A stretch of DNA of 64,000 nt from Amoebophrya sp. A120 (GCA_905178155.1 CAJINV010000003.1:1080968-1144967), one strand, 5' to 3'; counted from the stretch's first letter, positions 864-58,106 are shown. Numbers and translations: made by a program. The notes: generated by a model not told the origin, from the letters alone.

Positions 864-3405
864 TTAACTCCGTGATCGTCGGCCGGTCCTCAGGGCAGAA
901 TCTTGATTATGCAATGCAAATAAGGTATTGCACACAAACGCGAAGCGCCACGAGCAAGACACACGGACCTCAAGAAACGCGGCCCAAGGCCAAGAAGCGT
1001 TAAAACCTCCTCCAACAAGAAAACCAGCCTCCAGCATCAGTAGTTGCAGTTGGCCCAGTGGTGCTTGCTTCATCAGGTGTGCGCGCAATACATGTACAAC
1101 TTCTGCTTTGCATATTAGCATGGAAAACACGATTTTCCGCCCAAAATCGCCGTAGTGTTCCAGGATTTTCCGCCATTTACTGGCCAGCTTCCGCAGCTCG
1201 TCGTGCTGCGCGTGGAGGGCAGGAGGAAGAAACTGCGTTTTGAACCCGAAAGTCGCATCAATCGGCGCTTCCTCGAACTCCAGCGGAATGTCGCAGAAAC
1301 CCATGCACCCGGGCTGTGCCTGTTTCGCGACCCGGGTGGGTTTCTTGTCCGCGGTAGAGGGGTGGTTTCCCGCCTCCGTAACCAGCATGTGCAGCCCGGC
1401 GGACTGCAGCTCCTGCCCGAAAGATCCGATGAACCGCGCCGTGCCGCAGGGGGTTTCGGAGGTCGTCGTTGAGCTTGAGGAGGAGGCCTTCAACATACTC
1501 CCATCGGCGGGGCGGTCCAGGATCCTTTTACTTTCGTCTGCTCCCTTGTTCATCAGATCCACTAAAAAAACCGCGAGCATGCCGATGTCCACCTGCTTGC
1601 CGAACCGAACCGGATCGGGCTGCTCCAAGATGCGGGCCTTGTAGGTCCCGAGCCGCGTAATTGGGTTCAACGTCTTTTCGCGCAGTTCCCGCGCCGCGTT
1701 CTGCTCCTCCGGCGACGGCATCTTGAGCATCGTCCGAATGTAGTCCGACAACCGCCTCCCGCGGTTTTCCTTCTTCTTGCTGAACACCCCGGGTTTGCCC
1801 AGGACGTCGAAATGGTGGTCGATTTGCTATCAAATGCAAATGCTTATGCCTGGGTCTGGAAGGTTGCAAATTGTCGTGCTTTCTTCGGATCATAAAAAAA
1901 CTTTCATGGCGTGACCAGGAAGAGGAGTCCAGTCTGTGCTACGCGGGAAGCGAGGGCATTGATTTGTCATCCATGCGGAGCGAATAAGTACTTACGCATC
2001 AGGATGCCCTCCAAGAAACAGAAGCCGGCGACGCTTACGCTAGGTCATGCATTACAAACATCATGGGCCACACACAACTTGCATGACAAGCCTGGCAATC
2101 TTCCAGGCTCGGGCATATTTGCACGCGATATCTGTTCGAAGTTCACAAGTTCCGGCAGGAACGAGTGCTCTTGCGTCGGCGGGTTGTCATCTGAAGCACA
2201 CGAAAACTCCCCGATCTGCACCCGGATGCCTTTGCCGCCGTCTGTGAACAGATGGAGCAGGGTATCTTCCGTGATGTCCCTGTGATAGACATCATTCACA
2301 TGGAGTATCAAATGTAAAAATGTCTGCGTCTGGAAGAATCCAAGTTTGTCATGCCTGTCTGGCATGACTCTTAAATCTGTCATGCACATTACCAAAGAGC
2401 CCCACTTTTCTGTCATGCAGAGACGTAGTTTGTCACGCAGAATAGGCAACATCTAGAAGCTCACAAACTTGTCATGCTGAGCCAGCAATTGTCGCCTCCT
2501 CATGATACGGCGCACAGCATCACAAGTCTCCAGACCCAGACACTTTTACATTTGATATGGAGCACATGCAACCCATTCGCCACCTGGTTCGCGATTGGCC
2601 GGATGAAGGCCTTCGTCTGTTCCTCGGTCAACTGCCTTGCCGCGAAGCTCTGAAGCCGCGGAAAAACAGCGAAGACCGTGTCCATCCGCGGGCCATCGAA
2701 GAACATGTGTAAAGGCGCCAGCAGGCCAGCGGGCTTGTGTAAGGCGAGCGAGGCCAGCAGTTGGAGCTCGACCAGCGGTTTGCGCTGGGGCCAGGTTTTG
2801 TCGCGCTGCGCGGTCGACAACACCGGCGACTTGAAGATCACCTCCTTTACCGCTGCTCCTCCGTGGTCGAAGACGATCGGGGGATGCACTTGTGCCACCC
2901 GGTACGTGCTGTACTTCCCAAACTGCACCTGCTTTGAGAAGCTGTGGTAGACTCGCGCTTTTTCCTCGGTAGTCCGCGGAACGGGGAGCACAATCTTCTC
3001 GTTAGCCGGAAAACGCTGAACTGCGGCGGCCCCGCAAGCTGCGAGCAGATCCCCGGGCTCGGTGCCAAGGCACGACACGTCGTCCTCCTGCAGCAATTTT
3101 TCCGGTAGCAATTCCGGAATCAGGTCCGGGTTCAGAGAGCCCGCCAGCGACTCCAGCGCCGATGTGTTGCTAATAGACATAGGGGGGAGAAGGGCGCAGG
3201 AATTGCTAGTTTGCAACGACGGTGCCGCTGCCCCGGTGGACGCCGGCTGCTGATTGTTGCTGGAGGTGCCGAGGGCATCGGCGGATGAAAGAACCCCGTG
3301 GCTTGCTTTTACCGCCCCTGCAGCACGCGGGGGGGCCTTCAAAGACTTAGTTTCAATTTTAGCCCGCTTGGCCCCTGGAGATCGTGATGTGTCTCCTCTG
3401 GCCAT
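864..3405 (-). CDS. Protein kinase-fold protein, probably a pseudokinase; 3 exons separated by two TIR introners
   Basis: ORFs 2500..3405, 2045..2452 and 864..1787 join in frame after element removal: NGLHVLH-VNDVYHRDI and PELVNFEQ-IDHHFDVLGKPG. Motifs: HRDI; EFS at the DFG position; LPE at the APE position; subdomain IX-like QVDIGMLAVFLVDLM. Confidence 0.75.
1828..2130. mobile_element. Degenerate family A TIR introner, 303 bp
   Basis: Left end TATCAAATGCAAATGCTTATGCCTGGGTCTGGAAG; right end CTTCCAGGCTCGGGCATATTTGCACGCGATA. Imperfect TSD TTTGC/TCTGT. Removal restores the kinase frame. Confidence 0.75.
2306..2557. mobile_element. Family A TIR introner, 252 bp
   Basis: TATCAAATGTAAAAATGTCTGCGTCTGGA ... 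TCCAGACCCAGACACTTTTACATTTGATA. TSD TGGAG at 2301-2305 and 2558-2562. Removal restores LH-VNDVYHRD. Confidence 0.92.
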
Positions 3406-4334
3406 CTTGGATAAGCTAAAGGGTGCGACAGAGTCAGTAACTGAAACACAACCAGATTGATATTACAATGCGGAGTGTTAATACCTTGAGGAGATGAGTA
3501 AAGGATCAGCTAGTATGCTATCGAAATCGAGGCAAAGAAGGTTGCAAAATACGAGCCACTACCAGCTCAAACAAAAAATGCTAGATTTTGGTCGAAAGTG
3601 AGTTTGGTACATTATAATCAAAATCATATTTTTATCTGGAAACCACGTCAAAAAGACAAAGTACAGACTAGAAGCAGCACAAGAAGCACTCTGACGTCAT
3701 GTTGGTCATACGGTAGTTACATACTAGAAAGAAGCAAGTAAATCGACGCAGCCGCCCAAAGAGGCTCGAGTCAATCTCGAGTCGAAGGTTTGCAAGAGAT
3801 CATGCGAACAAGCACACGAAGACGAAGTACGAAGTATCTATGATCTTCTTTTTCACGACGATCCCCGTTGTCATTCTTATCGTTAGCTCTCTACAGTCCC
3901 CCAAAACATTTGTTTTTAAAGCGTCAACGATGGAACAAAGAGGACGTACCCGATACGAATAAAATACGACTTCTTCCCTCGCCAATTCAGACGCTCACCT
4001 TCTACGAGTCTAATGAAACTCAACGGAAATTTAAAGTGTATGCGTTTTTGGTCGATGACATGAACATATCGTTACTGAGAGACACGGTCACGACAGATCA
4101 CTTACTTTGACCACCTGCAGACAGAAACAACTACCAGGAGCCGTTCTTCCACTCACAGCTGGGGACGTTGGCGTTCTATCTGCAACAAATCCGTGATCCT
4201 ATCTTCCTTATCGTGATCTATCTTTCTGCAGCAGATCCGTGATCCTCGTCATCGTCACGTGCCAATGCCATACTTTTAGAAGTTTATCAAATCGATATAA
4301 AGCATGATGCTACCTGCTGATCAATTACTGGGAG

Positions 4335-4914
4335 CCCGGGGATCCCGCAGTACCCATCGGGAGAAAGGTTTCGCAAGACCGCAAAAGCTGCCAAAACTGC
4401 GAATCCAACTCCCGATCTGTTTCACGGGATCCCCCGGGACCGGGCGGGCCCCGGGGATCCCGCAGTACCCATCGGGAGGCAGGTTTCGCAAGACCGTAAA
4501 AGCTGCCAAAACTGCGAATCCAACTCCCGATCTGTTTAACGGGATCCCCCGGGACCGGGCGGGCCCCGGGGATCCCGCAGTATCCATCGGGAGAAAGGTT
4601 TCGCAAGACCGCAAAAGTTGCCAAAACTGCGAATCCAACTCCCGATCTGTTTCACGGGATCCCCCGGAACCGGGCGGGCCCCGGGGATCCCGCAGTACCC
4701 ATCGGGAGAAAGGTTTCGCAAGACCGCAAAAGCTGCCAAAACTGCGAATCCAACTCCCGATCTATTTTACGGGATCCCCCGGGACCGGGCGGGCCCCGGG
4801 GATCCCGCAGTACCCATCGGGAGAAAGGTTTCGCAAGACCGCAAAGGTTGCCAAAACTGCGAATCCAACTCCCGATCTATTTTACGGGATCCCCCGGGAT
4901 CGGGCGGGCCCCGG
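4335..4914. repeat. Tandem array of 5 x 115-bp GC-rich units, each an imperfect inverted repeat
   Basis: GATCCCGCAG recurs at 4341, 4456, 4571, 4686 and 4801. The copies are nearly identical. Confidence 0.95.
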
Positions 4915-5193
4915 CACCAGGCTCGAACCGAGGACATCAACGATCGTAGACGAAAGAGAACAAGGTGGTCCCGCCTGTGCTTTGCACTAGTTGTACTAGA
5001 ATGATGATGCAGCTTCTTGTTCTTACAAGACACCAGCATGGGAGCAGCATCAAATGCAGCTTTGATAGTATTGATGGCCTACCCACTTGTTGATACAGCG
5101 AGAGCATTGCTTGCAATAAAAATGAATCGCAATGTCCACAAAAAAAGTTCGTATCCATCAAAGTTCAAATAGAGACACCCGGCGGTGGTCGTG

Positions 5194-23582: not shown

Positions 23583-26500
23583 TCACCAAAATTTGCCCTT
23601 GCCTTTTCGATTCGGGCGCGCAAAACCCGTCATTTCTGCCCACTTGCCCTCGGCCCGCCTCCGGTGGTAGTGGGCGCCCTTTTTGACGCCCTTCCCCTTT
23701 CCCCAGATTAACCGCCCCTTTCGCGACGGCGGTGCTCCCTTGACCCAAACGGGAGCGTCCTTGTAACTGAGCGCTCCCGCGTCGACCCAGTTGGACCCGA
23801 AGGTTCCCCCCGTGAAATTCACCATCCCACCTCCCAGGATGTTTCCCTTATAGCCCCCAGCGAACCTTGGCAGGTTTTTGGCGAACCCGCAGGACCGGCC
23901 CCGCTCCGCTTCGGAAACGAGGCAATGCAGGTCCCCGTTTGTCCCCTGCGGCCCGATGAGCAGGAGCAGGCAGGGGTAAAACACCAAAGACATCAGCGCC
24001 GCGTACAGAATGGTGAAGAACATCGCGGCGCCGAGGCGCGTGAAAACGGAAACGTTGCAGAGGCGCCACAGCACCAGCGCCGTCGAAGCGGTTGTGACGA
24101 AGCCGGCCACGATCGACGGGCCCATCGACTGCATCGCGAATTGCACGCGGGGCCTCCGCCCGTAGAGCCCGTGGTTCCGTCCCCCCTCAATGTAACCGGT
24201 GCTTAAGTGCAGGATGTAGTCCATGGTCAGGCCAATCGCGATCAGCACGGCTAAGCTCTCGACGAGCCCGAACTCGGAGTCCATACTAATCAGCGTGGCG
24301 ACGACCATTTCCACGACGAAAAACGCGACCAGGTTCGCAAAGATCGTCACGATCCAATTCCGCGTGGCCAGGAGGACGGCGAGGAACACCAATGGGGTGG
24401 CCCACGCGATGCCGACAAAGTAGGAGATCGACACTTCCTTCATCGTCTCGTAAAACTGATAGCCCGTCGAGTACTGGTGCGCAAACCCCGCCTTCGCCGG
24501 CGCAATCAGGTTGAAATGGTCCAGAACACTCTGCACCGCTTCTGAAATCCGCTCGGCGTCGTCAAAGGGGATGTGCCGCAAAGAGGAAAAGGGGACAGAA
24601 AATTTCAATCCGTACATGGCGAAATTAGCCGAATTGATCCTGGTTTCGTCAAAATATAATCCGCCTCCGTCCTCGGTTGTGGACAGTAGAACGGGTACTT
24701 GGTCCGCGTCTTTATTCCCGTATTTCGCCGGGGGCTGGCAGGCGGAGGCACCGCTGCTCCAGGTGGTCGAGCCCCAGCACTGCGGACCGGTAACGTCGTC
24801 GCTTTCCAGTTTTCGCGCGGCACGCACGAATTGGTCCGTCCACGCCGGCCCCTGGTACACCGTGGTTGCGTCGGGCCGCTGGAAAAAGGCCGACTCGCCG
24901 CTGGCGGGGCCCCCTTGCGCGACGCGCTCCGTTGCGTAGGCCCGGTGGTAACCGCGAACCAAAGTCGCTCCGCCGGCCAACTGCCGTTTGGTTAAGAGGA
25001 AGCTCGCTGTGCTATCATCTTCGGAGGACTGGTAGTTGACGACGGGCAACGTGGTGTAGTCAAAGTCTTTGGCAAAAATGGTTTCTTCGGTTTGTTGCTG
25101 CACGACCTCTAGCACTGTGCGAAACGGACAGCGCAGGCTGTTGTCCACAAACGAATCCGTTTTATCGTTGAAGCTAGTCTCTAAACGTTTCCCCAGCTGC
25201 AGAATGTGGCGCACACTCTCGGGCGCGAGCAGGTCCACGGCCGGGTTTTTGTTCAGTTGCGGGTAGTTTCCGGAACTTTCGTCCCACTCCGGCAGCCACC
25301 GGGAACTTACGGTGGAGTCGCCCCCTTCGACCCACACCTCCTCCCTCACCCCCCAGAACACGTAGACCGTGTGGTTATTATTGGAAGACGGGAAATGGTG
25401 CCCCACCTCGTCCAAAATATCGCGCTCGTTGTACATGTGGGTTTCCGGGAAAAAGGACACGGGCTTCTCCGGGTAGTCAATCTGGCCGACGACGACGAGA
25501 GAAATGATCACCAGAATCCCCATCCCGAGGACAATCCCCATCGCCGGCGGGTAGCTGCACGCCGGGGTCGCGCGCAGATCCGCGTGCGCCGGGTTTATGT
25601 CCTCGTACGACTTGCCGAACGTTCCCGTGTACAAACCGCATAGCTCCTTCATGAACTTCGCCTTGGCCGAACGAAAATTTTCGTAGTAGTAATCGTTCCG
25701 CACGCCCCACAGGTCCTTTTTCGGCAGCGCGGAAAGGAGCGGGGAGGCGTGGAGGTACTTCAGGTAAGCGCTGAGAACCGCGGGCGCCACCACGACGGCC
25801 AGGAAATAGTCCGCGGTTAATAAACATGCCGTCAACAACCCGAGGTGGACCACGCCCGCGAAACTGCTGCTCAGCATCGCGAGGAAGGCGATGATAGTGG
25901 TGAAGGAGGTGGTGAAGATGCTCTTGTTGCTCCGGCGCAGCGCGCGGCGCAAAGCGATGTAGATGCGCACCTCTGTGTAGGCGGCTGGCCGGCCGGCGTT
26001 CAGGCCGTACTTGAAAGACTCCCGGGCCTCCCAAGCCAAGTCCGGATCATCGGTAACCGCCATGTATTACAGTGAAAAGTGCCCCCCCACCCCTGAAATT
26101 GTGATGCGAAGTTTCCACATGAAAACTGTTTGTGATGCATGAAAGGACTATGAATCTTTCTGATGCAGAGCCTAGGCGTGTATCGCATCGCTTGCATGAC
26201 AAGCGCCACCCTTGCTGGGGTCTTTTGCAATACAAATTTTCGCTATTCACGATTGGAAACCTGTCATGCTGATAGATGCAAGAGGGCGAGTGTTTCATTT
26301 GGAAAGGTTTGCAATACAAATGCTCCCAAGTTCGGGGGTGGGGGCATTTTTCATTGTAATACCATGGTTTGGAGCTTCGCATCTCCGTCCGGAACGTCGT
26401 GTCGCGCGTCCGGCAGCTCCTGTCGTAAAGTTTCGAACAGGACAAAGAAGTCGTCCGTGCCAACGGCGAAGAGGACGAAAAACGCAAAGTACATCACCGG

Positions 26501-28587
26501 GTCGAAGTAGCTCCGCCAGCAGACGTAAAAGTAGAGAAACATCCCCAGGCACAGGCTCGACAGCTGGAGTAAGAGCAGGTTTAAAATGCAGAAGGGGCTG
26601 AAGGTGAAAGCGTAGGTGATCACCACGATCGCGATCAGCGTGAACGGCAACCCGACCGCCACGTCGCGCGTCGCGAGCGCGTTGAGTTCTTCCCGGCTGC
26701 AGGCGGAATCGTAAAACCGGACCTGATAATCCAGGCTGTTAGGAAATTTATACCATCCCCCGTCGTTATTTAGGCGCGGGGATAAACCGGAGGCATCCGC
26801 GTCCGTGAAGGTCGATGCGAGCAAATCGTTCAGCCGTTCGCAGTAGTCGATGGTGAAATTGCTTTCCCGCGCGAACGTCGTCATCCCGGTGGAGGCCACG
26901 ACGCGGAGGGTAGTTATCAAATGTAAAAATGTCTGGGTCTGGAAGAATGCGCGATTTGTCATGCTGCTTTTCCATGACCCGTGAGGTCTGGAATGCAGGA
27001 CCTAGCATGACAGATTCTGCGACACTTCTCTAATGCCTATCCTGCATGAGAAACTCCCTCCCGACTTGGTCAAAACTGGACGACTTTTGGTAATCACGCA
27101 ACACAGATTTTTGCATGCTGCGGATTTAGCATGACAAGTTGCAATCTTCCAGACCCAGACATTTTTACATTTGATAGTAGTTTGGGCATTACTATCTCCG
27201 ACAACCGGCATTGCTTGTACCGTGCTGAGCGTTGGATCAATGGCGCCGACGGTTTCACAGCTGAGGATGTCGTCGATTTGGTCTTGCACCGCCTTCCAGT
27301 ACGACGCTTCCGCGGCCTCGCGCGCCTGTAAATAGTCGGTGGCATCCACGTCCAGATTCGCCAAGTAGGGCTCCATTTTTTCCTGCTCCAGTCCCCCCTC
27401 GCCCCAGAGCTGGGACGAGGAACTACTAGAGGCCAGCCACGCGAGAAACCCGATCCGACTGCGACTGTACACGAACCGCAGAAAGTAAAAATCCTTTCCC
27501 AACGGGAGGCTCGGCGAGCGCTGCAACGCGCCAAATAACGTCGTCTCCAGCTTGCAGGCAGCCCTCAAAAAGTTCCCCGATTGCAGGAGATTGTTGCCAG
27601 GATTATAGCTGATGTCCCGGTACAGGAGAAAGGGCTGCTGCATCAGCGTGGTCGCGTTCTTTTTGTCCCGGGAATCTGCGGAGAAAGTGGTGTAATCTGG
27701 CCCGTTGCTCGCTTCAAGCCCCTCCCGCCGCCGCAACGTCTGCATGTAGGCGAAGCTGTGTTCATAGTCCACCGGCGGCTTCCCCGAGTCCTCGTCTTTT
27801 AAATGTGAAAAGTAGGCCCGTGCGGCGTCGAACCCGTTGAAGCGCAGGTCCGTGTCGTTCCCGAGAAAAATGTCAGCTTCGGAGACGCCGGCCTGCGCGG
27901 ACGTCGACTTGGGAAACCCGAGCGTCTGCTGGGGCAGCGGGATTTTCAACCTGCCGTCCCACATGGTCCCCGCTTCTTCCCTCCACATCTGGTTCAGCGC
28001 CAACCGGATCTGCACCAGGGGAGATTCCAACGGGGCGTAGGACTATTACAATGAAAAATGCTCCCACCCCAGAACTTGGAAGCATTTGTATATGCAAACC
28101 TTCCCAAATGAAACACTCGCCCTCTTGCATCTATCAGCATCACAGATCGCCAATCGTGAATATGGTGTCCAGACGACAGAAGTTCGTAGTTCGTAGTTCT
28201 ATGACGGCACGCAAGACACAAGAGTTTCGAACATCGAAAGACTAGCAAAAGAGGAAGCTAAGCAGCTCAATGTCCGAAGTATTCGACTTCAGTCTATCCC
28301 TGTCGACCTGTAAAAGGTTAGCATCAAAAGATGAGGAAGAGTTTTAATTTGGAAACTTCGCATCACAAATCATCGAAACTTTGGCGGGGTGGGGGAATTT
28401 TTCACTGTAATAAGGAGAGCAGCGTGTTCCTCCAGTCGTCCGCGTCCACGAGGCTCGAGTCTACGCTGGAAATAGCCACCAGGCCGAGGCCAAGTAGGGT
28501 GAGAAAGTACGTCACTCCCAGCACCACAAAGGGAATCTTCGCCGCCGCGGCGCAGATCGGCCTCTGAACACAATCGCAAATGTACAT
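23583..28587 (-). CDS. Patched/Dispatched-like RND/SSD multi-pass membrane protein interrupted by three TIR introners; start uncertain
   Basis: Four ORF pieces join in frame: LLS-YAPLES, AQT-TLRVV and LQTM-AVTDD. Motifs AVGTDDFFVL and IGLTMDYILH; two hydrophobic TM clusters. Confidence 0.85.
26065..26361. mobile_element. Family B TIR introner, 297 bp
   Basis: TATTACAGTGAAAAGTGCCCCCCCACCCC ... GGGGTGGGGGCATTTTTCATTGTAATA. TSD CCATG at 26060-26064 and 26362-26366. Confidence 0.92.
26915..27176. mobile_element. Family A TIR introner, 262 bp
   Basis: Perfect TIR TATCAAATGTAAAAATGTCTGGGTCTGGAAGA. TSD GTAGT at 26910-26914 and 27177-27181. Confidence 0.95.
28044..28412. mobile_element. Family B TIR introner, 369 bp, inverted relative to 26065..26361
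   Basis: TATTACAATGAAAAATGCTCCCACCCC ... GGGGTGGGGGAATTTTTCACTGTAATA. TSD AGGAC/AGGAG. The first ~120 bp closely match the reverse complement of ~26245-26361. Confidence 0.9.
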
Positions 28588-29329: not shown

Positions 29330-30635
29330 TTACAAAAGTTTCTGTACGCGGAAGAAGTGTTTTAGATGCCATACTTGCCAAATGCTGGTTACCAAAATGA
29401 GGAAAATCATGCCCAGGTTGACGGACATCATAGTGGAGATGGCGGATTCCAATAGGTACTCGAACTTCGCCAATTGCTTCTTCTCGTACTCGTTTTCGGC
29501 CGCAATCAGATCGGTCTGCGAAACCGACTCCTTCAGCAGCGCGTCGAGGGTGTTGATGTCCTTGGCCTTTACCAGCCCCCGCTGCTCATATAGACAGTAT
29601 GGAAACGAGAAAACAGACGAAGTTTGCTCCTTGCTCACTCGCTTTTTACCAACATGAACCAGGGAAGAGCACCACAACTGTAGTCCTGCTGTGGCACCGA
29701 TTGCTGTAACCACGTAGTGATTTTTCCTATCGCGTGGAGTAGACGTAGAAGATGACCTAGAGTATACTTAGACTTACTTACCACCTCCTTGAACCTGACA
29801 TACACAAAGTCCTGGCGACGCTTCAGTATTGAGCAGAAGCGGTAATGTTGACTTTGCATTTCCCTATGTTTGCGATGTTGCTGGCATCGGCATCCTCAAT
29901 TGCTGCGGTCTCTAAGGCCACAGTCCACCTGCTCTTCAGCTGGTTTCCCCACCAGTTCGTCTCTCCGCAGATTACTGAGAACCTTCGCGTTTATTTGTGC
30001 ATACCGTCACTACCATGAAAGGTCTCCATCGATCGCTGCAATTGAGCCTGATCGTCATCCTGATCTACTTCAAATGACATATTATAAGCAGAAAAAATCG
30101 CTCCTACACCAAACAAACTAGTTTTACCCAGTAAGGGCCTTAGGTCTAGCAAACGAAACAAACTTATGTACGAGTGTTCTCCTTCCATGTTGGTCAAGAT
30201 GCTGAACTTGCCCGCAGACTCGCCCTTGTCGTTGGGGGCCACGTTTTTCGTGTTGCGGACGACACCGTTGGTGTCTCGGAATTCGAGCCGGCAGTGCGTG
30301 GCACGGTCCTCGCTCACCGTGTACTTCACGCTGAACACTTGGCCCTCATCGAGGACTTTCACGAATGTTCTCGTCTGTCCCTCGCTCAAGTAGAAGTACG
30401 CACCTTTTTTTCCCTCCTCCACGGGGTCCGAGAGGGCGAGTTGCAGAGAGGCCGGCTTGGCCACTTGTTGCAGCATTTGTGTTGTACCCGCGGGCTGCAG
30501 CTCGGGGCCGGCGGCCGCCGCGGAGTCCTCGGAAGAGGTAGAGCCTCTTTGGTTGCTCCGCCCACCGCCACCCAGCGCGGCCACAGCGCCGCTGGCCACG
30601 AGGAAAAACCTCTTCCACAATCGCGGAAACCGCAT
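29330..30635 (-). CDS. emp24/gp25L/p24 GOLD-domain cargo receptor, multi-exon
   Basis: Signal-like N-terminus; YFYLSEGQTRTF; GKFSILTNMEGEH; C-terminal TM followed by WQVWHLKHFFRVQKLL, typical of p24. Confidence 0.85.
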
Positions 30636-33713: not shown

Positions 33714-35206
33714 TCATTTCATCATGTAAGCTCCACTGTGCGCACACTTGTCACAGAAGAGTTGTCTGTGCATGGTCATGACCGCAAACTCCGTGTTGTT
33801 GTAAGGCACAACCCCGATCGCCTCGATCTCATCGGGTTCGTACAGCACGCTTTTGCTCGCTTCCTTCAAAATGAAGATCTTGTTTGACTTCTTCAGGAAG
33901 AGCACTTGCACCTGTTAATATGGGATAAGAACCACATGATCATTGTCATTCTATGACAAACTGGTGCCTACTAACTTCATCGGTATAATTTCCTTCAAGA
34001 ATACGGTATTGCTTTATTGAAAGATCTGACCCTTGTAGAAATGAAAAATCCGAATCCCTATCAATCTGTATGACGAGGTCGTACTAGAAGGGGACAATCA
34101 TGAGCATGGGATAACTGCACAGGCCACAAAACAAACCATACTAAGTAAAAGTACCTCCTTGTTCTCGACGTGCGATAGAATGGTTATTTTGTTCGCCTTG
34201 TAGGTAACCATGAGTTCCCGCACGAAGCGCGAAATGGTTTCGAAGAACTTCAAGCCCCCGTTCACCCGATCCGCCAGCTGTACACGGCCGGCGTTTTGCG
34301 TAAACTTGAACTTCGGCACGGGCGCCTTGGGTTGCATCCACAGGATGGCGTTCGCGGGGGTGTTTTCCGCCCATTGCATGTATATTGTGCCGAAATTGTC
34401 CTCCTTGTAACAGAGGTAGCACCCCACACCGCAGGCCTTCAAGTCCGAAATGTCGGCGCCTGTTTTTAGGTGAGGGATGTTATCAAATGTAAAAATGTCT
34501 GGGTCTGGAAGAATCCGAACTTGTGATGCTGCATTTGGATTCCAAAAAAATCTGTATTGCATAAGCAGCAAAGGGAATGCAATTTTGGCTACGGGGAGAG
34601 GGCATTTGCCATGCGGAATGGGCATCACAGAGCCCTCAGAAAGTCTGTGATGCTAGGGCATGCATCACAGACATCATAGCCCATGCAAAACGTGCATGAC
34701 AAGTCTCAGAATCTTCCAGACCCAGACATTTTTACACGTGATAGATGTGGAGAACGCGCAACGAAGTGCAGGCGCAAGGTAAATTTCAAATCGAATCGAC
34801 CGCAAAACCACATAATTACATACTGAAGTAGTGCGATTAATATAGTCCAAGACTTTACTTACCTATGAAGGCCATGATCATGAAATCATCAAAAAAGCCG
34901 AAGTAAATTTTTACCGTCTCCTTTTGCTCTGGCGCCGTCCGCTTTCAAGCCCCTCATGGCTTCGTCCGAGAAGCCTTCCGAGAGGGCAACCGCCCCCCCT
35001 GCGCCCGGAGTAGCAGGACCCAGAGAGAACATCGAGCCTTCCCGGGCGACCCGGCCGTGGGGAGAGCCCACGCCCGCGGGCTCCTTCGCTCTCTCCTCCC
35101 TCGCCGCGGTGGGCGAAATTTGCAGCCCGGCCACCGAGCTTCGCTTTGGAGTGCCCGAGTACGCGGAGGGCGTCGGAGGTCCTTCCGTCGCGAACGACAT
35201 TGTCAT
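33714..35206 (-). CDS. Immune mapped protein (IMP1/IMP2)-like, multi-exon
   Basis: GCYLCY...GTIYMQWAE...PKAPVPKFKFTQNAGR and C-terminal IEAIGVVPYNNTEF resemble apicomplexan IMP1-like domains (recognised by eye). Confidence 0.6.
34481..34743. mobile_element. Family A TIR introner, 263 bp
   Basis: TATCAAATGTAAAAATGTCTGGGTCTGGAAGA ... TCTTCCAGACCCAGACATTTTTACACGTGATA. TSD GATGT at 34476-34480 and 34744-34748. Confidence 0.92.
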
Positions 35207-36066: not shown

Positions 36067-39000
36067 CTATTTGTAGATGATTTTCGCGCTGGACTTTAGT
36101 CGTACGGGGTCGTCCTGCGCCGCGGTTTCAAACTCGACGACAGAGATGGCGTTTTCCCCGGGCTTCAGCATCACGCCCGGGAGGTACAGGGTGTAGATCG
36201 GGCCTGCCGAGTTCCAGTATCTGCCAAGGTGCATGCCGTTCACAAAAACCACTCCTTTGCCAGTCGGAGACGGTGCGTTTGTGGAAAAAAGTGTTCGCAT
36301 GTCCAGAAATGTGTCGGCCAAGAGCTGCGTCGCCGGGTCTTTCGGCTCTGGAACCGAAAAAAAACCGGAGTAAATCGCGGGAAGTCTTGCCGTGGTGTCT
36401 GCGCTTGATGTAGTTTCCTGCTCCCGCTCTTGCTCGTTGCGCTGCCGTTCAGGTTCGTCCTCGCTTTGCTGTACTTGCTCGGTTTGTTCTTCAAGCTTTC
36501 TGCTCATTTGAACGACTACGTTGTTCGACTCCTGTATGCTGGACCCAGCTGCAGACGTAGTTGCTCGCTCTGCAGCGTTTTGTCGGTCCATGAGAGGCCA
36601 AATGTATCGCATTTGCGCCTTGGTAGTGTTGAAGGCCGCCATCTGGGCCGTGGCACGCTGTTGTTGTTTTCCACTCGACCATGTCGTCGTTTTAATCGAT
36701 GCCGCCACAAACTCTTCGTGCTGTGCCGATATCTTGTCGAAAAGTCCTTTGCACAAATGCAACGTACCCGCCGCAGCGGCTTTGAAGCCCGAAATCTGGA
36801 ACCCCTTCCGGTCCTGCAGCATTTGGGGCGAGAAGTTTTGCCGGCCGTAATTTTCCACGACGAAATCAATTATCCTGTGCAAAAGTATCGTACTCGTAGT
36901 AATTACATTCATGCATTACAAATCTTGCTCTTAAGCTAAATCCGCATTACAAATTTTATTTCTCATGCTGAGGAAACTTGTAATGCATTTATACGAGTAC
37001 GATACTTTTGCAGTGCATATCAATTTCCGCGTGGCAATCTTTCTTTTCGATGTGGAACTCCGCAGCTCTGTTTTGATTTTGATTTTGTAAAAGATAAAGA
37101 TCAAGAAGCACCGCATTAAATCGGACAAGCAGTACAGTACTTCTTCAGCAAAGCCCAATTTTGCGCTCCAAACAGAAGTTCAAATCAGCAAACGCAGCAG
37201 TTGTATTCTAGAGTTGAGTACCCACTATCTTCGCGGTCGACCCAGCGGATGAGGTTTCCGCCGACAAAGACGTAGACTCGGTCGTTGGCGTTTGTGATTT
37301 TGAACGAACGCTTCGAACAGCCGGAGGGTGTGGAACGGTACAGGAAAACGTGATCGAATACGTCGTGCTCGTGTGCAAACAGGTCCGCATCCACCGCCGG
37401 TGGGAGTGCTTGACACCGGGCACCGTCACTCACGTCGACCTAAAATCAAATTGACCGTTTGTTTGAATCAACCCGGCTCTTGGTGATCATTTTTGAGATC
37501 TTCATCTTCTACGAGGGGAGGGAGCAGATTATACATATTTGAATGCGGAAACTTCATCAAAACAATACCGCCTTCAGCAGCGAATATGACTCCTTCTGCA
37601 GGACGATATCTGGGTACACGGTCGGTGATGGCAGCAGGCTTCCTGACCTTGATGAAGATGATGTCCTCGTCCCGACTGGAGCACCAGGAGTTTTCCTTGA
37701 TGCGATTTCGTTTTTGATTGCCAGAAATTTGTCTTCATTATCCGATCCGATGCCGTGGCCGCCGTCCTCCGCGATCGGCGCGTTATAATCGTAGCTGGTC
37801 ACCTGCGGTTGCCCGAGGTATTTTTCCTTCAGCCAGGACTCCGATTTCAGATTCAACCCGTTCGTGAAGCCAAAGTTCGTACACCCGAAGGCCATGTAGA
37901 GGTTGAAATTGGGCAAGGACTTCATCGTGCTGATCATCGTTTTCGCGTCCGTGGTGGCGAAGTTGGAATCTTTCCAGGCCGTCATCCACCCCGTGTAGTA
38001 CTCGGACACAAACTCCGGCGACTTTCCCGCCTCGTTCCAGTGGCGCATGTTCATGAAACTGATGCGCGGCGACCAGATGGTCGGCCCGAAATCGCCCACG
38101 TGGTACACGTGCTTGGTGGCGTCGTGGATGCCCCCGGCGTTCAGGAGCAAGTAGTTGTCCGTGGTGTAGTACTGCACTTTCGTGCCCAGGTGCCTCTGCT
38201 GCTCGCTCAACGCCCAATCTATCCTGAGTAAAAACGTACCCACACCATAGTCAAGATGGGGAATCGGCTAGACAAGTCCACAAGTTTTGGCTGTTTTGCA
38301 TGACAAATTTGGATTCGTAGTGCAGTGCTGTTTGAGCTAGCTCAGCAGCATCACAGATCTAGCATACCATGCTGATTGGAGCATGACAAATTGCAAAACA
38401 CGACTAGAAAATGCTTCTCATGGGGCTCCGCATGAGAAACATTTTCAGCATGCAGATTTGCATTACAACTCTGGTGTGGGTACGTTTTTACTCAGGATAC
38501 AATCCATGTATTTCTTATCCTCGTCCGACTTTTGCACGTGCCCTTTGCATTTTGTGCAGGAAATCTAGCCCGGTCCTGGGACAAAAATTTCGGGCGGCTA
38601 ACCTCCCTTTGCATTTCAAAAAGGGAGGCTAGCCCGGTCCCTGGGCAAAGTTTTCGAATGGCTAACCTCCCTGTGCATTTCAAAAAGAGAGGCTAGCCCG
38701 GTCCCTGGGCAAAAATTTCGGGTAGCTAACCTTCCTTTGCATTTCAAAAAGGGGAGTTAGCTCCTGCCCAAAAATTTCAGTGGGCTAACCTAGGTTTGCA
38801 TTTCAAAAACCTAGGTTAGGAAAAATGAATTCGCGCACTTTTGCTAACCGCCCTTTTCAAAATGAAAAAGGCGGGTAGGAAAAAAAATCCGGCCGCTTTC
38901 CCAGGTTCAGCCTGGAAAAGCGGCACATTTTTTTTTCCCCATTCAAATGAAAAGGGCGGTTGGGAAAAAGGCGCCAATTCATTTTTCCTAACCTCCCTTT

Positions 39001-46740: not shown

Positions 46741-46957
46741 TCGTAGGTCTGCTAGATCTGCTCAAGCTCAACCGCAAGGAAGTACTTTATCTTCAAGAAG
46801 AACACGAACAATGCTTCTACTGCAGCACCCGATGAGTGCTCGACTTCCACCAGCCGTTTCTCGCACAATGTCAATGCAGCTCGCAAGGCAACGTTTTTTT
46901 GCAACACGCTCGTGGAGAGGGCGCGTTCGAATTACATCACTGCAGCTGCAGCACCTT

Positions 46958-49900: not shown

Positions 49901-51540
49901 CGGCCGCGTTCGCACTGCGGGGAGCGACTGCTGTGTGGCGGGGACGCGAGTGTCCCACACACTGAAGGGCGTGCTCAGTATCTGAATTTCTGCGAGGCGG
50001 CGTGGACTTATTTCTTCCTCCAAGTCTGGCAGTTCTTGCTCTGGATCATCGGCTGTAAGTTTTCTCTCTGCAGTGCTACTTGTGCTCGCAAGAACGTCAT
50101 ATTCACGAGCAAAAGCAGCTCCCTGCGTGCTCGCGAAGGCTTCTTGCTCCGCTGAAAGCGGATAAGTTGTATCCGTATCGGGAGAAATAGTAGAACCATT
50201 TTCGTCGCTCATCAGCTCCCTTGGCGTTGGCGGCTGCTCATCCATTATGCCTAGCAACCTCCGTCGCCTCGCAGCTGGGGGCAGGAACGCGAGTTGCGTT
50301 GGCGAAGGCGGCACGAAGGTCTCCCGATAACTCACTCGGCTCTGCAAGTTCAGCTGCACCTGCCGGAGATTAAACGCCGCGCTGCGGTCCGCGTCGAGAA
50401 ACAAGTAGAGCATGACGACGAAGAGCAGAAACAGCAGGCACTCCACGAACCGGCACTGCAAGTCGAACACCGCCTTCTGTCGCTTGATCCGCCCGCGCTC
50501 GATCAGTTCCTGCAGGGTGGGGATTTTCGACGGGTCGACCGGATCCAAGTCAATTTCCATCTGGCCGCGCAGCTTCCGGTGCAGCGCCAGCTGCTGCTTC
50601 AAAAACGGGTGGTTGAAGGAGAAGTCCCGCCATTTTTGCCCCTTGGGCGCCAGCGTGTCCACCACGACCAATTCCGTGGTCGCCTTCACCAGGGTGAACC
50701 GGTAGTACTGGTTTGAGACCACGTAGTCACTGCCCGCGGGCAGGATGATCTCCCCCAGCGTCATGCTGTCCGGTACCAGCTGGCCCTCGCGGTCGAGGAA
50801 AAACACGATCTCCTGCTCCAGCCCCCAGTACTTCGCGGCCTGCTGCTGCAGGCTGAGAATCTTGGCATCCACCTGCACCATGAACACCGCGAGCAAGCTC
50901 CCGCTCCCCTCGACGACCGGCTTCCCCGTAACGGACTTCACGTGGTACACGACCTCCACCTTCATCTCGTTCTTTGCGACGTTGGTCGGGGACGAAGCGG
51001 TTGAAGCATTTCCGGCTCCACCACCTCCACGACCCGCCGACCCTGTCCCTTTCTGCACGAGAAACTGCACCAGCACGTTGTTGCAGCCGGAGTGGCACTG
51101 AAAGAGTGCCTCGTCGGACAGCCCCGCGGACGCGTTTTCCTTCAACTCCGCCAGCCGGCCCTCGGTGGACGCGAGGTCGAGCGTAACGCGCTGCAGATCC
51201 TCCTGCGTTTCCAGCACTTCCTTCCCCTTTTTTTGCACCAAGGCGTTGACGAGCTGGCCCTGCTTCGTGAGGTCGTGGACGATGCGCTCCAGCGTATGCA
51301 CTGCAAAACTATCGTACTCGTACTATTAATCGCAGTCATGCATAACAAATCTCGATCTTAAGGAAAATCCGCATTACATTTCTCATGCTGAGCTAATTTG
51401 TGATGCAATTCATACATACTAGTACGTGCACGACACTTTTGCGATGCATACAGCGCGTCCTTCTGCAAAATGCGGTCCACATGCTTCTCATCCACGATCC
51501 CCTCCACCACGTCCTGCTCCGTGCCCAGTCGCGGATCCAT
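46958..51540 (-). CDS. Polycystin-2/PKD cation channel-like membrane protein; start uncertain
   Basis: FLLFVVMLYLF first TM; FNTFFYNSNEEGLVVSRLLFDIRNSGGV resembles the polycystin domain end; last TM FFLFMVVFLFGEQLLVAIMVN; N-terminal coiled coil. Confidence 0.65.
51295..51450. mobile_element. Family C TIR introner, 156 bp
   Basis: TATGCACTGCAAAACTATCGTAC ... GTGCACGACACTTTTGCGATGCATA. TSD CAGCG. Interior similar to 36871..37019. Removal gives KDAL-ERIVHDL. Confidence 0.9.
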
Positions 51541-55700: not shown

Positions 55701-58106
55701 CACGATCAGCAGACCGGGGATGAGAATCACCATGAAAATGATGACGAAGGAGACCCGAATCGAGACGGCTGCATGTAGTCGGTCGGAAATTTTCCGAGCC
55801 GTGCCGGCGTATTCGGAGGTCTGGCGCATGCCCGGCAGCATCTTCAAGATCTTGACCAGCCGAAAGAACCGCCCGGCACGCGCCGCTAGCTTAAACATCC
55901 TGGTTACCAGGATGATGGTCGCGTCACCGTCCTCACTCTGATAAAAATTGCATTTAGGAAGATGAACATTTGTTTGCCTAGCTTTATTCATCTCGCACCT
56001 CCGCACCTTGCAACTACAAACAAGCACTTCACAACAGAAAAACAAGCACAACTATAGTAGTACAAGTAGTGGGTGTGTCTATGAAAAACAACAAGTAGCC
56101 GCAGCCATGAGTACTCTTCTACCTGAGAATAGGTTGCCTCCGCGACGAAGCTGAAGTCTGCGACGACGGAGAGCATTCCGAGGGAGTCCATCCAAAAGAA
56201 AAAGGAGTAGGTATACCCAACCGTCCCGAGGCACTGGACGGATATTTCGAAGAGAAACGCGCCAATGACGAAGCCGAGCAGCACGTCCAGCGCCGTGGTG
56301 TTTGCCACGTCGCCCACCACCCACAGATCCGGGAAGTACAACGCGATCAAAAGGGTGAGCAGCATGACCATCTGGAACGTGGGGTCCTTTTGCATTTCCC
56401 GGGACGGCTTCTCCCAGCTGCGCACCAGGTTGCGCAGCTCCTGCAGCACTTGCGGTTCCCGTTGGAGTAAAACCGCGGACTGCTTCCCCGACCCGGCGGC
56501 ATTGTTCCGATTGAACGGCGAGACCGTGGCAATCACCGAGATGGGGGACGATATCAAGTTGGAGAAACCGCTTGTTGTTCCTTTCGAGTGCTTGCTCGGC
56601 GACGAGGAAGACATCGTTGGGCCGCGGTTTTGCGGCGTTGTGGTTGCGCCGGAGGAAGTGCCGGAAAGCTTCGCGGCCGCGCCGGGGGACGAAATCGATA
56701 AGCCGGCCTCCAAATCCGTGGCACTGCCGGAAGAGCCGAAACCGCCGCCGCCGCCCAGCGCCGCGTTCTCCAAGGCTAAAGCTTGCTGCTCCTGCTTCTC
56801 CTTCTCGAGCATCTCCGCCAACTCCGTTTTCCAATCGCTGGGCTCCATGCCGAACAGGTTCTCCCAGGTGCGCATGTAGTCGTTCAGCAGTAATGTTCGG
56901 TCGTCCTGGGGCCCGAACACCGTGGAGGCAACCTGCACCGGGAGTTTCCCGTCCTCGTCCCGCACAAAGGGGTCCGCGCCCGCGGAACAGAGGGCGGACA
57001 GCATCACCTCGTTCGAAGCAGACGGCAACTTCAGTGCGGTCAATAACGTCGGCCCCCGCGCGGGACTGGCGCCGGCGAGGAGCAGTGCCTGGAGCCCCAG
57101 GTAGTTGTCGTGCTCGATCGCGATTACCATCGGGATTTTGCTGATTCCTAAAGAGTTTGAGGTGGTCCTCGAGCCGTTATTCGCCACCTTCACCGCGGCA
57201 CGGTCCTCGAAGGTGCCGTTCTTGTCTGCGTGATACCAGAGCAGCAGCTCCACCAAAATCACCGAGAACATCTGCTCTCCATGAGTTGCCCCGCCGGAAC
57301 CCGGATTTTTTGCGCTAGACAGGGAAACCGCCGCGCAAAGCGGACTCCAGCCGTAGTGGTCCACAATGTCGTGTCTGGCCCCGCGAGAAAGCAACAGCCT
57401 CGCGGCCGCCACGTTCTTGTTCGCGCACGCAAGCAGCAGCGCCGTCTGCCCGCAGTCTGAAAGCGCATTGACGGAGGCACCGTGCTCCAAAAGCAGCTCC
57501 AGCATGGTTGTGCCGTTGCGCAGTTGCGGCCGAGACGCGACAAAACCTGGGTTACAGGAAGGTCTTTGATTTCAGCTATTTTGACTACACAGACTTCGAC
57601 CTAAAGTGCCTTCAAATCAAGCAACGAAGCAAAAACGGTAGCTGAAAAGGAACCTAGCAGCGTGGTGAAGGAATCGTGAAAGTCGTCGTAGCACGGGACG
57701 TCGATGCAGATGGACATCGTGCCCAGCATCTTCTTAACCTGCGTGACGTCCCCGCTGGCGACCACATTTCGAAGCTTGGTCAACCCTTCGAGATCGTCCT
57801 GCAGCTTGGTCAAAATGACCAAGTTATCACACAGAAAAAAGCTGGCAGGTCACATTTGTAATGCAAAAATAAATACACGAAAAACTCTGCACTGCGTATC
57901 CTAAGCAGCATGCTATGAGGCCGCCCATGACAGATTTTTCTGTGTATTAATTTTTGCATTACAAATATGCCCTGCCAGCTTTTTTCTGTGGGATACAAGT
58001 CCGCGGGGTTCAGCACTTCATCGCCCATCAGCCGGCTCGCGAGAGCAGCGGACGACGCGCCGCCGGCCCCGCCCGCGTCCTGGGGGTTCGCCAAACCCGG
58101 ATCCAT
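52730..58106 (-). CDS. Class I 3',5'-cyclic nucleotide phosphodiesterase with N-terminal ankyrin repeats and a multi-TM region
   Basis: PDE motifs YHNWLHAVDV, HDAGHPG, LENMH, TDM, LHSADISN, EFFLQGD and SQMGFI. Ankyrin GQTALLLAC and GWSPLCAAV. Canonical intron example: 53674..53865. Confidence 0.9.
57825..57995. mobile_element. Family E TIR introner, 171 bp, with ~58-bp TIRs
   Basis: TATCACACAGAAAAAAGCTGGCAGG ... CCTGCCAGCTTTTTTCTGTGGGATA. TSD CAAGT at 57820-57824 and 57996-58000. Removal gives PADL-VILTK. Confidence 0.93.

What the first reader, a model, noticed from the sequence alone, without database searches (positions are those of the whole stretch)
2330..57965. GCATNACA motif repeated inside every introner family, in both orientations
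Seen: GCATGACA, GCATCACA, GCATTACA, GCATAACA or their reverse complements occur repeatedly per element. Examples: TGTCATGC x4 plus GCATCACA in 2306-2557; GCATGACA x2, GCATCACA and GCATTACA in 38220-38499; GCATTACA x2 and TGTAATGC in 36871-37019; TGTGATGC x2, GCATCACA x2 and GCATGACA in 34481-34743. The interiors are otherwise dissimilar, even within family A. Inference: a cross-family cis signal, such as a binding site for the mobilising or excising factor; orientation independence points to DNA or dsRNA recognition.
Basis: partly seen in the sequence, partly recalled or inferred. Interest (0 to 1): 0.8.

Follow-up and report, generated by a model that had tools for sequence, protein, structure and literature searches.

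The report
Shared 11-base site inside mobile introns
Every transposon-like intron in this stretch of parasite-dinoflagellate-type DNA carries two to five copies of one 11-base word that stays intact while the rest of the element drifts, so it is likely the docking site for the still-unknown protein that moves (or possibly removes) these introns.

Summary
GCATNACA occurs 39 times in the window against 6.6 expected. 33 of the 39 lie in ten TIR elements (2.3 kb). None lies in 17 composition-matched canonical GT-AG introns (2.8 kb), and the remaining 58.8 kb is at chance level.

The real site is longer and asymmetric, GCATBACARRY. The elements match the published Amoebophrya A120 introner type: TAT+7+AAA inverted repeats and a 5-bp duplication. 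Transcript-like contigs skip exactly element plus duplication for 7 of 9 intact copies.

A further 114 elements from a public assembly, 13 interior families when pooled with the window's nine intact copies, all carry the site.

In 97 aligned family-A copies the site cores are 92% conserved, like the TIRs (95%). The central N (64%) and the spacers (68%) are not. Paired sites show no compensatory change.

One sub-claim fails. Family-A interiors are alignable; two of the three window copies are simply inverted.

Best reading (0.55, inferred): subterminal dsDNA docking sites for the mobilising transposase. Main rival (0.25): an RNA signal for excising these non-canonical introns. I found no report of the site in print.

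The parts
1985..2130 (.). Degraded family-A element. The right TIR is recognisable and ends at 2130; the left boundary is approximate. Sites at 2049+ and 2081+.
   Evidence: Sequence read. The right end GCAATCTTCCAGGCTCGGGCATATTTGCACGCGATA resembles the family-A right TIR. Site positions.
2306..2557 (.). Family-A introner A1, 252 bp, TSD TGGAG, inverted relative to A2. Sites at 2347-, 2378-, 2411-, 2470- and 2517+.
   Evidence: TIR 19/20 plus 5-bp TSD. Removing the element and one TSD copy gives a 186-codon open frame on the minus strand. Orientation. This stretch was not covered by a read lay.
26065..26361 (.). Family-E introner E1, 297 bp, TSD CCATG. Sites at 26100-, 26131-, 26194+ and 26262-.
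   Evidence: A transcript-like contig joins 26059 to 26362, skipping 302 = 297+5.
26915..27176 (.). Family-A introner A2, 262 bp, TSD GTAGT. Sites at 26957-, 27005+ and 27129+.
   Evidence: Joint 26909 to 27177 skips 267 = 262+5.
28045..28412 (.). Family-E introner E2, 368 bp, inverted relative to E1, with an imperfect TSD (AGGAC/AGGAG). Sites at 28137+ and 28360+.
   Evidence: Sequence. Alignment to E1. Joint 28038 to 28413 skips 374.
34481..34743 (.). Family-A introner A3, 263 bp, TSD GATGT, nested inside a canonical minus-strand GT-AG intron. Sites at 34522-, 34622+, 34646-, 34662+ and 34694+.
   Evidence: The joint 34458 to 34914 (CT..AC, 455 nt) removes it together with the host intron. 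It ends 22 nt upstream of that intron's 3' splice site.
36871..37019 (.). Family-C introner C1, 149 bp, TSD TCAAT. Sites at 36913+, 36944+ and 36979-.
   Evidence: Joint 36864 to 37019 skips 154 = 149+5 in both X3 and X6.
38220..38499 (.). Family-B introner B1, 280 bp, TSD CAATC. Sites at 38298+, 38348+, 38381+ and 38460+, all in one orientation and antisense to the minus-strand gene.
   Evidence: Joint 38214 to 38500 skips 285 = 280+5 in X3 and X6.
51295..51450 (.). Family-C introner C2, 156 bp, TSD CAGCG. Sites at 51340+, 51371+ and 51399-.
   Evidence: Alignment to C1. Joint 51289 to 51451 skips 161 = 156+5.
57825..57995 (.). Family-D introner D1, 171 bp, a near-perfect palindrome, TSD CAAGT. 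Sites at 57857- and 57956+.
   Evidence: (I1). Joint 57819 to 57996 skips 176 = 171+5.

Best explanation
GCATBACARRY is a conserved, asymmetric 11-bp site present in 2-5 exact-core copies in each of the ten TAT-N7-AAA-TIR, 5-bp-TSD introners of the window, and it likely serves as a subterminal double-stranded-DNA docking site for the transposase (or an accessory DNA-binding protein) that mobilises all these families.

Shown directly:
- The site is confined to the elements.
- It is absent from canonical introns.
- It occurs in every family examined.
- The outermost exact site lies 32-48 bp from the terminus at 14 of 26 family ends.
- It is used in both orientations.
- Neighbouring sites are often 28-35 bp apart.
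- Its seven specified bases are conserved like the TIR while the middle base and the spacers drift.

Inferred:
- The conserved TIR positions (TAT and a run of A) carry too little information to mark an element uniquely (my hand estimate: roughly 12-14 bits).
- A trans-acting protein would therefore read the internal site array on duplex DNA. It could do so in either orientation, possibly cooperatively along one face of the helix, since about 31.5 bp is three turns.
- It would then assemble the two ends for cut-and-paste transposition with a 5-bp staggered target cut.
- The enzyme would be the one behind the published A120 'fam38' type of element, which has the same 5-bp TSD and TA/TA termini.
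- Only lineages that keep the sites go on copying. That would explain why the sites and the TIRs are conserved together.
For: 1. Enrichment and specificity. There are 33 hits in 2,344 bp of elements, 0 in 17 canonical introns of matched GC, and 6 in the other 58.8 kb. Shuffled elements give a mean of 0.81.

2. Longer site. The RRY extension was not selected by the search, yet it replicates in three sets. In the window it is 32/33, 30/33 and 31/33. In 365 sites of 94 family-A copies elsewhere it is 355, 360 and 326 of 365. In 57 sites of 20 elements of other families it is 56, 53 and 52 of 57. The middle base is G>C>T and almost never A: 3/365 and 0/57.

3. Generality. All 114 TIR+TSD elements recovered from a public assembly have at least one exact core, with a median of 3-4. 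All 13 interior-similarity families carry it. The non-A families were by-catch in the flanks, so they were not chosen for the motif.

4. Constraint. In 97 aligned family-A copies, mean conservation is 0.946 for the TIR, 0.917 for the site core, 0.641 for the middle base and 0.683 for the spacer. 0 of 20,000 random window sets reach the core value. Shared variants in core columns number 261 against 870 expected. The core/spacer difference ratio falls from 0.66 in the closest pairs to about 0.27 in deep pairs, in parallel with the TIR.

5. Orientation freedom:
- Among the 33 in-element sites, 20 are plus and 13 minus, although all genes here are on the minus strand.
- The outermost sites face outward at 15 family ends and inward at 11.
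- E1 and E2 are mutually inverted and both are spliced.
- B1 has four sites in one orientation and is spliced.
- 7 of 10 multi-site families hold both orientations, against about 7.9 expected for random orientation (read; expectation by hand).

6. Spacing. Adjacent sites are 28-35 bp apart in 10 of 23 cases against 2.8 expected (P about 1e-4). With one representative per family it is 8 of 25 against 2.95 (P 0.006), and 6 of those 8 are in the same orientation.

7. Not a stem. There is no complementary covariation of the middle bases of facing sites.

8. Precedent. Transposase-encoded proteins bind the TIRs and, cooperatively, the subterminal repeated motifs of a MITE, in both arrangements (PMC1636448, passages).

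9. A published A120 element class is annotated '5-bp TSD, TA/TA termini', as found here (PMC12130899 dataset, row 580).
Against: - No protein, and no autonomous element carrying the sites, was found. None of the 27 long ORFs of the window has a transposase domain. The records behind the extra loci could not be searched.
- The evolutionary test does not separate selection on transposing lineages from selection in place, for example for splicing. Strictly private variants are not depleted in site cores (20 against 15.2 expected). Parsimony changes on terminal branches are depleted (ratio 0.36). The sample is sparse, so terminal branches include pre-insertion history.
- Every one of the ten window elements happens to carry at least one UGUNAUGC in the sense RNA. 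An RNA reading of that strand is therefore not excluded. By my hand calculation this has about a 0.23 probability under random orientation.
- The 28-35 bp window was chosen after seeing the data. In the family-A majority line the spacing is less regular: 32, 16, 39 and 85.
- Site positions are paired more often than other interior positions in minimum-energy RNA folds, 83% against 64%.
- The extra loci may come from the same or a very close organism, so they replicate the pattern but not the lineage.
Confidence: 0.55

Rival explanations
1. RNA-level signal. One strand of the site (for example UGUNAUGC or GCAUNACA in the pre-mRNA) would be bound by an RNA-binding protein. That protein would mark these splice-site-less introns for excision by the unusual machinery of this lineage. 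Elements carry sites on both strands because they insert in either orientation.
For: - These introns have no consensus splice sites, and U1 snRNA was not detected in the published genomes, so some other intron-definition signal is needed (PMC7789003 passages).
- The site is specific to the elements that are removed non-canonically.
- All ten window elements have at least one UGUNAUGC in the sense RNA (with gene strand).
- Terminal-branch changes are depleted in site cores, ratio 0.36, as selection in place would give.
- Recalled, not tested: the reverse strand UGUNAUGC loosely resembles PUF-type UGUANAUA elements, and GCAUG resembles RBFOX sites.
Against: - There is no strand preference relative to transcription: 20 against 13, with all genes on one strand.
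- Three elements (the degraded A copy, E2 and B1) have no sense GCAUNACA, and two of them (E2, B1) are seen spliced.
- The orientation mix per family is what random orientation gives: 7 of 10 against about 7.9 expected by hand. Three families use one orientation only.
- Strictly private variants are not depleted in the cores.
- A3 is removed as part of a canonical intron and needs no signal of its own, yet it carries five exact sites. It may simply be young.
- Canonical introns show no related branch-site-like word.
Confidence: 0.25
2. Structural element. Facing copies of the site would pair with each other, in RNA or in single-stranded DNA, to lengthen the terminal hairpin or build internal hairpins. 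Conservation would then reflect the stems.
For: - Site positions are paired in 83% of cases against 64% for other interior positions in minimum-energy folds.
- In families A, C and D the outermost sites at the two ends are mutually complementary and extend the TIR stem.
- Facing pairs 13-17 bp apart occur.
Against: - The middle bases of facing sites do not covary: 26/97, 26/97 and 12/97 are Watson-Crick against 43.5, 19.6 and 14.6 expected. The 8-bp stems would therefore usually carry a central mismatch.
- B1 (four sites) and two further families have sites in one orientation only.
- A stem needs no particular sequence, yet the same word and the same one-sided RRY extension recur in all families.
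Confidence: 0.07
3. Passive inheritance. All families descend from one element built of short repeats that contained this word, and the word persists without any function.
For: - All families share one TIR architecture and TSD length, so common ancestry or a common enzyme is likely.
- Within family A the sites are at homologous positions.
- A recurrent spacing of about 31 bp could be the trace of an old tandem repeat.
Against: - Within one family the seven specified bases are conserved at 0.917, the base in their middle at 0.641 and the spacers at 0.683. Neutral decay would not spare exactly those bases.
- Between families the interiors are unalignable, yet the site and its RRY extension are kept, at different positions and in opposite orientation relative to the termini.
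Confidence: 0.08

Closest known systems
Introner elements (IEs) of Amoebophrya sp. A120 (Farhat et al. 2021, PMC7789003; passages, supplement text and figure legends seen, figures not seen)
   Same: - Inverted repeats start with TAT, followed by seven variable bases and at least three A.
- Direct repeats of 3-5 nt (here 5) lie at the borders.
- Elements are about 150-370 bp and have no consensus splice sites.
- They are absent from transcripts.
- Genes lie in one-directional clusters.
   Different: The paper describes the terminal repeats and the hairpin. An internal shared site is not mentioned in the passages I read. 'GCAT' does not occur in the supplement text. Strain identity of the window was not tested.
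[quoted passage not shown] 2006, PMC1636448; abstract and passages seen)
   Same: - Short repeated words lie just inside the TIRs of a non-autonomous element.
- They occur in direct or reverse arrangement.
- Their conservation and arrangement matter for the protein-DNA complex.
- The subterminal word resembles part of the TIR. Here 3 of 11 TIR types begin TAT-N-ACA.
   Different: - There the binding was shown by EMSA and footprinting. Here nothing was bound.
- Here the word is shared by many families with different TIR cores.
- It extends through the whole interior.
- The elements function as introns.
- The superfamily differs (TA TSD there, 5 bp here; the Tc1/pogo TSD is recalled).
   Same: Five-base target duplication and TA...TA termini. 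The dataset rows I read (21 of 58 A120 rows, plus the fam38 row) mostly class the A120 families as TIR DNA transposons of unknown superfamily.
   Different: - No sequence of family 38 was available, so similarity and the presence of the site could not be tested.
- The window's elements have no ORF.
[quoted passage not shown]
Subterminal motif arrays of Ac/Ds (AAACGG hexamers) and En/Spm (12-bp TnpA motifs) - recalled, no call
   Same: Many copies of a short asymmetric word, in both orientations, within 100-250 bp of each end. They are needed in cis for transposition.
   Different: Different superfamilies and TSD lengths. Those arrays are family-specific and the elements are not obligate introns.

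Membership tests
Amoebophrya A120-type introner elements | Inverted repeat = TAT + 7 variable nt + at least 3 A | tested here: met
   9 intact elements in the window and 114 in the extra loci. A few TIR types in the loci deviate after the TAT, for example TATGGGAGTGTCAGGA.
Amoebophrya A120-type introner elements | Direct repeat of 3-5 nt at the intron borders | tested here: met
   A perfect 5-bp TSD in 8 of 9 intact window elements and 4/5 in E2.
Amoebophrya A120-type introner elements | Removed from RNA at non-canonical borders | tested here: met
   Joints skip exactly element + TSD for 7 of 9 intact elements. A3 is removed within a canonical intron. The runs are only guessed to be RNA, but the same contigs also skip GT-AG introns.
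Amoebophrya A120-type introner elements | Belongs to that species or strain | not tested
   Organism names are coded and no genome is held. The assignment rests on the match to the published description.
Subterminal transposase-binding repeats of TIR transposons/MITEs | Several copies of a short word just inside the TIRs, direct and inverted | tested here: met
   2-5 exact cores per window element. The outermost exact site is 32-48 bp from the terminus at 14 of 26 family ends.
Subterminal transposase-binding repeats of TIR transposons/MITEs | Word conserved among copies relative to flanking sequence | tested here: met
   0.917 against 0.683 in 97 copies. 0 of 20,000 random window sets reach the core value.
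Subterminal transposase-binding repeats of TIR transposons/MITEs | Bound by the element's transposase and required for transposition | not testable with these tools
   No transposase was identified.
Subterminal transposase-binding repeats of TIR transposons/MITEs | Also present in the autonomous partner | not testable with these tools
   No autonomous element is held. The apparent 609-bp element is two adjacent copies.
Ginger-like / fam38-type TIR elements of A120 | 5-bp TSD and TA/TA termini | tested here: met
Ginger-like / fam38-type TIR elements of A120 | Integrase-like ORF or sequence similarity to fam38 | tested here: not met
   No ORF lies in the elements and no transposase or integrase domain is found in 27 window ORFs. 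These are non-autonomous at best. Similarity to fam38 could not be tested.
Intronic RNA-binding-protein sites (splicing enhancer type) | Fixed strand relative to the transcript | tested here: not met
   20 plus against 13 minus, with all genes on the minus strand. E2 and B1 are spliced with no sense GCAUNACA. The strand UGUNAUGC is present in all ten elements, which is not significant.
Spliceosomal branch-point sequence | Present near the 3' end of ordinary introns | tested here: not met
   0 hits in 17 canonical introns. No related word appears in their last 45 nt.

The most novel reading that the evidence does not exclude
The 11-base site is the intron-definition code of a hairpin-guided, U1-independent excision system. 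A dedicated factor reads GCATBACARRY (or its complement) and flags an insert for exact removal from RNA whatever its border sequence. This is what has allowed some 30,000 transposons to settle inside coding exons of this parasite.
Probability: 0.2. Interest if true: 0.9.

Novelty: new variant of a known kind. Interest (0 to 1): 0.6.

Why it matters
How the non-canonical introners of Amoebophrya are mobilised and how they are removed from RNA are both open questions. The genome paper found no general transposase and no U1 snRNA (PMC7789003 passages). The later survey leaves the superfamily 'Unknown' in most of the dataset rows I read.

A short, well-defined site shared by all families gives a concrete bait for pull-downs. 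It also gives a search key for the autonomous partner and a variable for genome-wide tests relating site loss to intron retention or to copy activity. If the site is a transposase docking array, it explains how elements with very low-information termini are recognised. If it is read in RNA, it would be a new kind of intron-definition signal.

Tried and rejected
- Whole genome: none is held, so all statistics rest on the window plus 134 loci.
- Raw RNA runs X9 and X10 laid only 6 and 9 reads and gave nothing. No RNA holder is listed for the stretch.
- The records behind the metagenome loci could not be searched for an integrase.
- Viral contigs: the two 21-mer matches lie in an AT-rich, phage-like coding sequence, contain no site, and are chance matches.
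- Earlier notes of this scan: none on this genome and none on the motif.
- Branch-point idea: rejected.
- Stem idea: rejected on covariation. The third pair used a wrong column and was redone.
- A putative 609-bp long element is two adjacent copies 84 bp apart.
- Separating selection in place from selection on transposing lineages was inconclusive, because singleton counts and tree-based counts disagree.
- My first family-A alignment was misleading because the copies were not co-oriented.
- In the extra loci, 250 hits lie outside the recognised elements in 67 kb. These flanks hold truncated and unrecognised elements, so they were not used as background.

Full report
**1. What is in the window**

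GCATNACA, counted on both strands, occurs 39 times against 6.61 +/- 2.79 in dinucleotide shuffles. None of 100 shuffles reaches 39.

A search for inverted termini flanked by a 5-bp direct repeat found eight elements of 149-297 bp whose ends read TAT, seven variable bases, then AAA(A).
- Reading the sequence added a ninth intact element at 28045-28412, with a 4/5 duplication, inverted relative to the copy at 26065.
- It also added a degraded copy ending at 2130.

These ten elements total 2,344 bp and hold 33 of the 39 hits.

**2. The elements are introns of a published type**

Removing each element and one copy of its duplication restores long open frames. All Pfam-supported ORFs lie on the minus strand.

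Contigs of two transcript-like runs skip exactly element plus duplication for seven of the nine intact elements:
- 26059>26362
- 26909>27177
- 28038>28413
- 36864>37019
- 38214>38500
- 51289>51451
- 57819>57996

The same contigs also skip 18 minus-strand GT-AG introns. The copy at 34481 lies inside one of those canonical introns and is removed with it. The copy at 2306 was not covered by a lay. The runs are only guessed to be RNA, but contigs that lack both kinds of intron are best read as transcripts.

The architecture is the one published for Amoebophrya sp. A120 (PMC7789003, passages):
- an inverted repeat starting with TAT, then seven less-conserved bases, then at least three A;
- direct repeats of 3-5 nt;
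- no consensus splice sites;
- one-directional gene clusters.

I take the window to be from that organism or a close relative. This is an inference from the description, not a tested identity.

**3.

| Region | Size | GC | Hits |
|---|---|---|---|
| 17 canonical introns (without a nested element) | 2,816 bp | 0.41 | 0 |
| Ten TIR elements | 2,344 bp | 0.43 | 33 |
| Rest of the window | 58,840 bp | 0.55 | 6 |

Shuffled elements give a mean of 0.81 and a maximum of 5 in 2,000. Interiors more than 50 bp from either end still hold 17 hits against 0.42 expected. An unbiased count of 6- and 7-mers in element interiors puts the pieces of this word at the top.

**4.

The three bases after ACA were not part of the search, yet they are R, R, Y in 32, 30 and 31 of the 33 in-element sites. 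Only 1 of the 6 background hits shows RRY. GCATBACARRY has 28 matches against 0.68 expected, and 27 of them are in elements. The middle base is G, C or T and almost never A.

**5. More copies**

No genome is held for the window.

- The loci contain 114 non-overlapping TIR+TSD elements.
- Every one has at least one exact core. The distribution is 1 core in 4 elements, 2 in 15, 3 in 39, 4 in 23, 5 in 19 and 6 in 14. That is 422 hits in 28.8 kb.

By interior similarity, these elements and the nine intact window copies fall into 13 families, counting the two window E copies as one. All 13 carry the site. The non-A families were by-catch in the 400-bp flanks, so they were not selected for the motif.

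The RRY extension and the avoidance of A in the middle replicate in both the A set (365 sites) and the non-A set (57 sites).

Two caveats apply. The assembly may be the same or a very close organism. The flanks outside recognised elements hold 250 further hits, because they contain truncated elements.

**6.

The interiors of family A are not dissimilar. The copies at 2306 and 34481 are inverted relative to the copy at 26915. Co-oriented, the three align without large gaps (141 of 263 columns invariant), and all 97 family-A copies align over 262 columns. My own first alignment made the same mistake.

Within a family the sites are therefore homologous. The case for function has to rest on differential conservation and on the comparison between families.

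**7. Constraint**

Mean conservation in the 97-copy alignment:

| Column class | Mean conservation |
|---|---|
| TIR | 0.946 |
| Seven specified bases of the five exact consensus sites | 0.917 |
| RRY extension | 0.784 |
| Middle base | 0.641 |
| Spacers | 0.683 |

None of 20,000 random sets of windows reaches the core value.

Further measures:
- Shared variants are three-fold depleted in the cores, 261 against 870 expected.
- The core/spacer ratio of differences falls from 0.66 in the closest pairs to about 0.27 in deep pairs, and the TIR behaves the same way.

Between families the interiors do not align at all, yet the site is kept. Its position and orientation relative to the termini differ between families: 15 family ends face outward and 11 inward. 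The outermost exact site lies 32-48 bp from the terminus at 14 of 26 ends.

This answers the second refutation criterion: descent alone does not explain the pattern.

**8. DNA, RNA or stem?**

*Against a stem.* The middle bases of facing sites do not covary. They are Watson-Crick in 26/97, 26/97 and 12/97 copies against 43.5, 19.6 and 14.6 expected. Three families use one orientation only. Sites are nevertheless more often paired in minimum-energy folds, 83% against 64%.

*Against a strand-specific RNA word.*
- With all genes on the minus strand, 20 sites are plus and 13 minus.
- E1 and E2 are mutually inverted and both are spliced.
- B1 is spliced with all four sites antisense.
- The orientation mix per family is what chance gives: 7 of 10 with both orientations, about 7.9 expected by hand.

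*Not excluded.* All ten window elements contain at least one UGUNAUGC in the sense RNA. By hand this has a probability of about 0.23 under random orientation.

*For duplex DNA.*
- Recognition is free of orientation.
- Adjacent sites prefer a spacing of 28-35 bp, about three helical turns: 10 of 23 against 2.8 expected. With one representative per family it is 8 of 25 against 2.95, P 0.006, mostly in the same orientation. The window was chosen after seeing the data, and the spacing is less regular in the family-A majority line.
- The sites are conserved together with the TIRs.
- There is experimental precedent for MITE subterminal repeats bound cooperatively by a transposase (PMC1636448).

*An evolutionary test that did not decide.* I tried to separate selection on transposing lineages from selection in place. 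Strictly private variants are not depleted in the cores (20 against 15.2 expected). Parsimony changes on terminal branches are depleted (ratio 0.36). With 97 copies out of probably thousands, terminal branches include pre-insertion history.

**9. The likely enzyme**

The window has no transposase. The 2025 survey of introners classes the A120 families I read as TIR DNA transposons of unknown superfamily. It annotates family 38 as '5-bp TSD, TA/TA termini', classed Ginger, with ORFs similar to LTR-element integrase regions (PMC12130899). The window's elements have the same duplication length and termini.

An integrase-type DDE enzyme is therefore the best lead. No sequence of family 38 was available to test this.

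In 3 of 11 TIR types the terminus itself reads TAT-N-ACA-G, which resembles the internal site. This was noticed after the fact.

**10. Is it in print?**

- No paper in the library holds two of the four 8-mers.
- 'GCAT' is absent from the text of the Farhat supplement.
- 'Subterminal', 'binding site' and 'internal motif' do not occur in the main text of the 2025 survey.
- The 2020 preprint on dinoflagellate introners mentions only terminal features.
- Figures, bioRxiv supplements and the final 2023 journal version were not seen.

**11. Verdict**

This is a real, specific and constrained 11-bp cis site shared by all introner families of this type.
- Most likely (0.55) it is a subterminal dsDNA docking array for the mobilising protein.
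- An RNA-level excision signal (0.25) stays open.
- Stem formation (0.07) and passive inheritance (0.08) are unlikely.

It is a new variant of a known kind: subterminal repeats of TIR transposons, here shared across families of obligate introns. Interest 0.6.

Noticed in passing
window 34459-34913: A canonical minus-strand GT-AG intron of 455 nt contains a complete family-A introner (34481-34743). The introner ends 22 nt upstream of the intron's 3' splice site, so it is removed without using its own borders.
   Followed up: partly
window 4300-4990: A GC-rich array of about 115-bp units, each internally palindromic (CTCCCGATC...CCCGGGACCGGGCGGGCCCCGGGGATCCCG...). It contains no GCATNACA.
   Followed up: no
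window 38802-39005: A different foldback element with 58-nt arms 84% complementary, flanked by TTCAA on both sides. It does not have the TAT type of terminus and has no site.
   Followed up: no
window 26065, 57825; loci L073, L002: In 3 of 11 TIR types the terminus itself reads TAT-N-ACA followed by G (TATTACAGTG, TATGACAGTG) or by C then AG (TATCACACAG). This is close to the internal site (C)AT-N-ACA-R, so the internal sites may be reiterations of a terminal recognition word. This is a post hoc observation.
   Followed up: partly
window 29594-29867: One contig of one run joins 29593 to 29868 (274 nt, AC..AT) with only 30 letters on the shorter side. This is a possible non-canonical intron without TIR or site, or an artefact.
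   Followed up: no
window, 18 canonical introns: Canonical introns start GTAC in 11 of 18 cases and show no obvious branch-site word in their last 45 nt.
   Followed up: partly
L047/L076 (one contig): Two complete family-A introners lie 84 bp apart in the same orientation, which shows how densely exons can be invaded.
   Followed up: partly
L135, L136 (viral contigs): The family-A 21-mer occurs by chance inside an AT-rich, phage-like coding sequence in two viral contigs. No element and no site are present there.
   Followed up: yes
window elements and loci: Near-variants of the site recur (GCAAYACAAAT, GCATGAGA, GCATATACAAAT), as does a second word, CATGCTGA, seen in all five window families. 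The true number of sites per element is higher than the exact-core count.
   Followed up: partly
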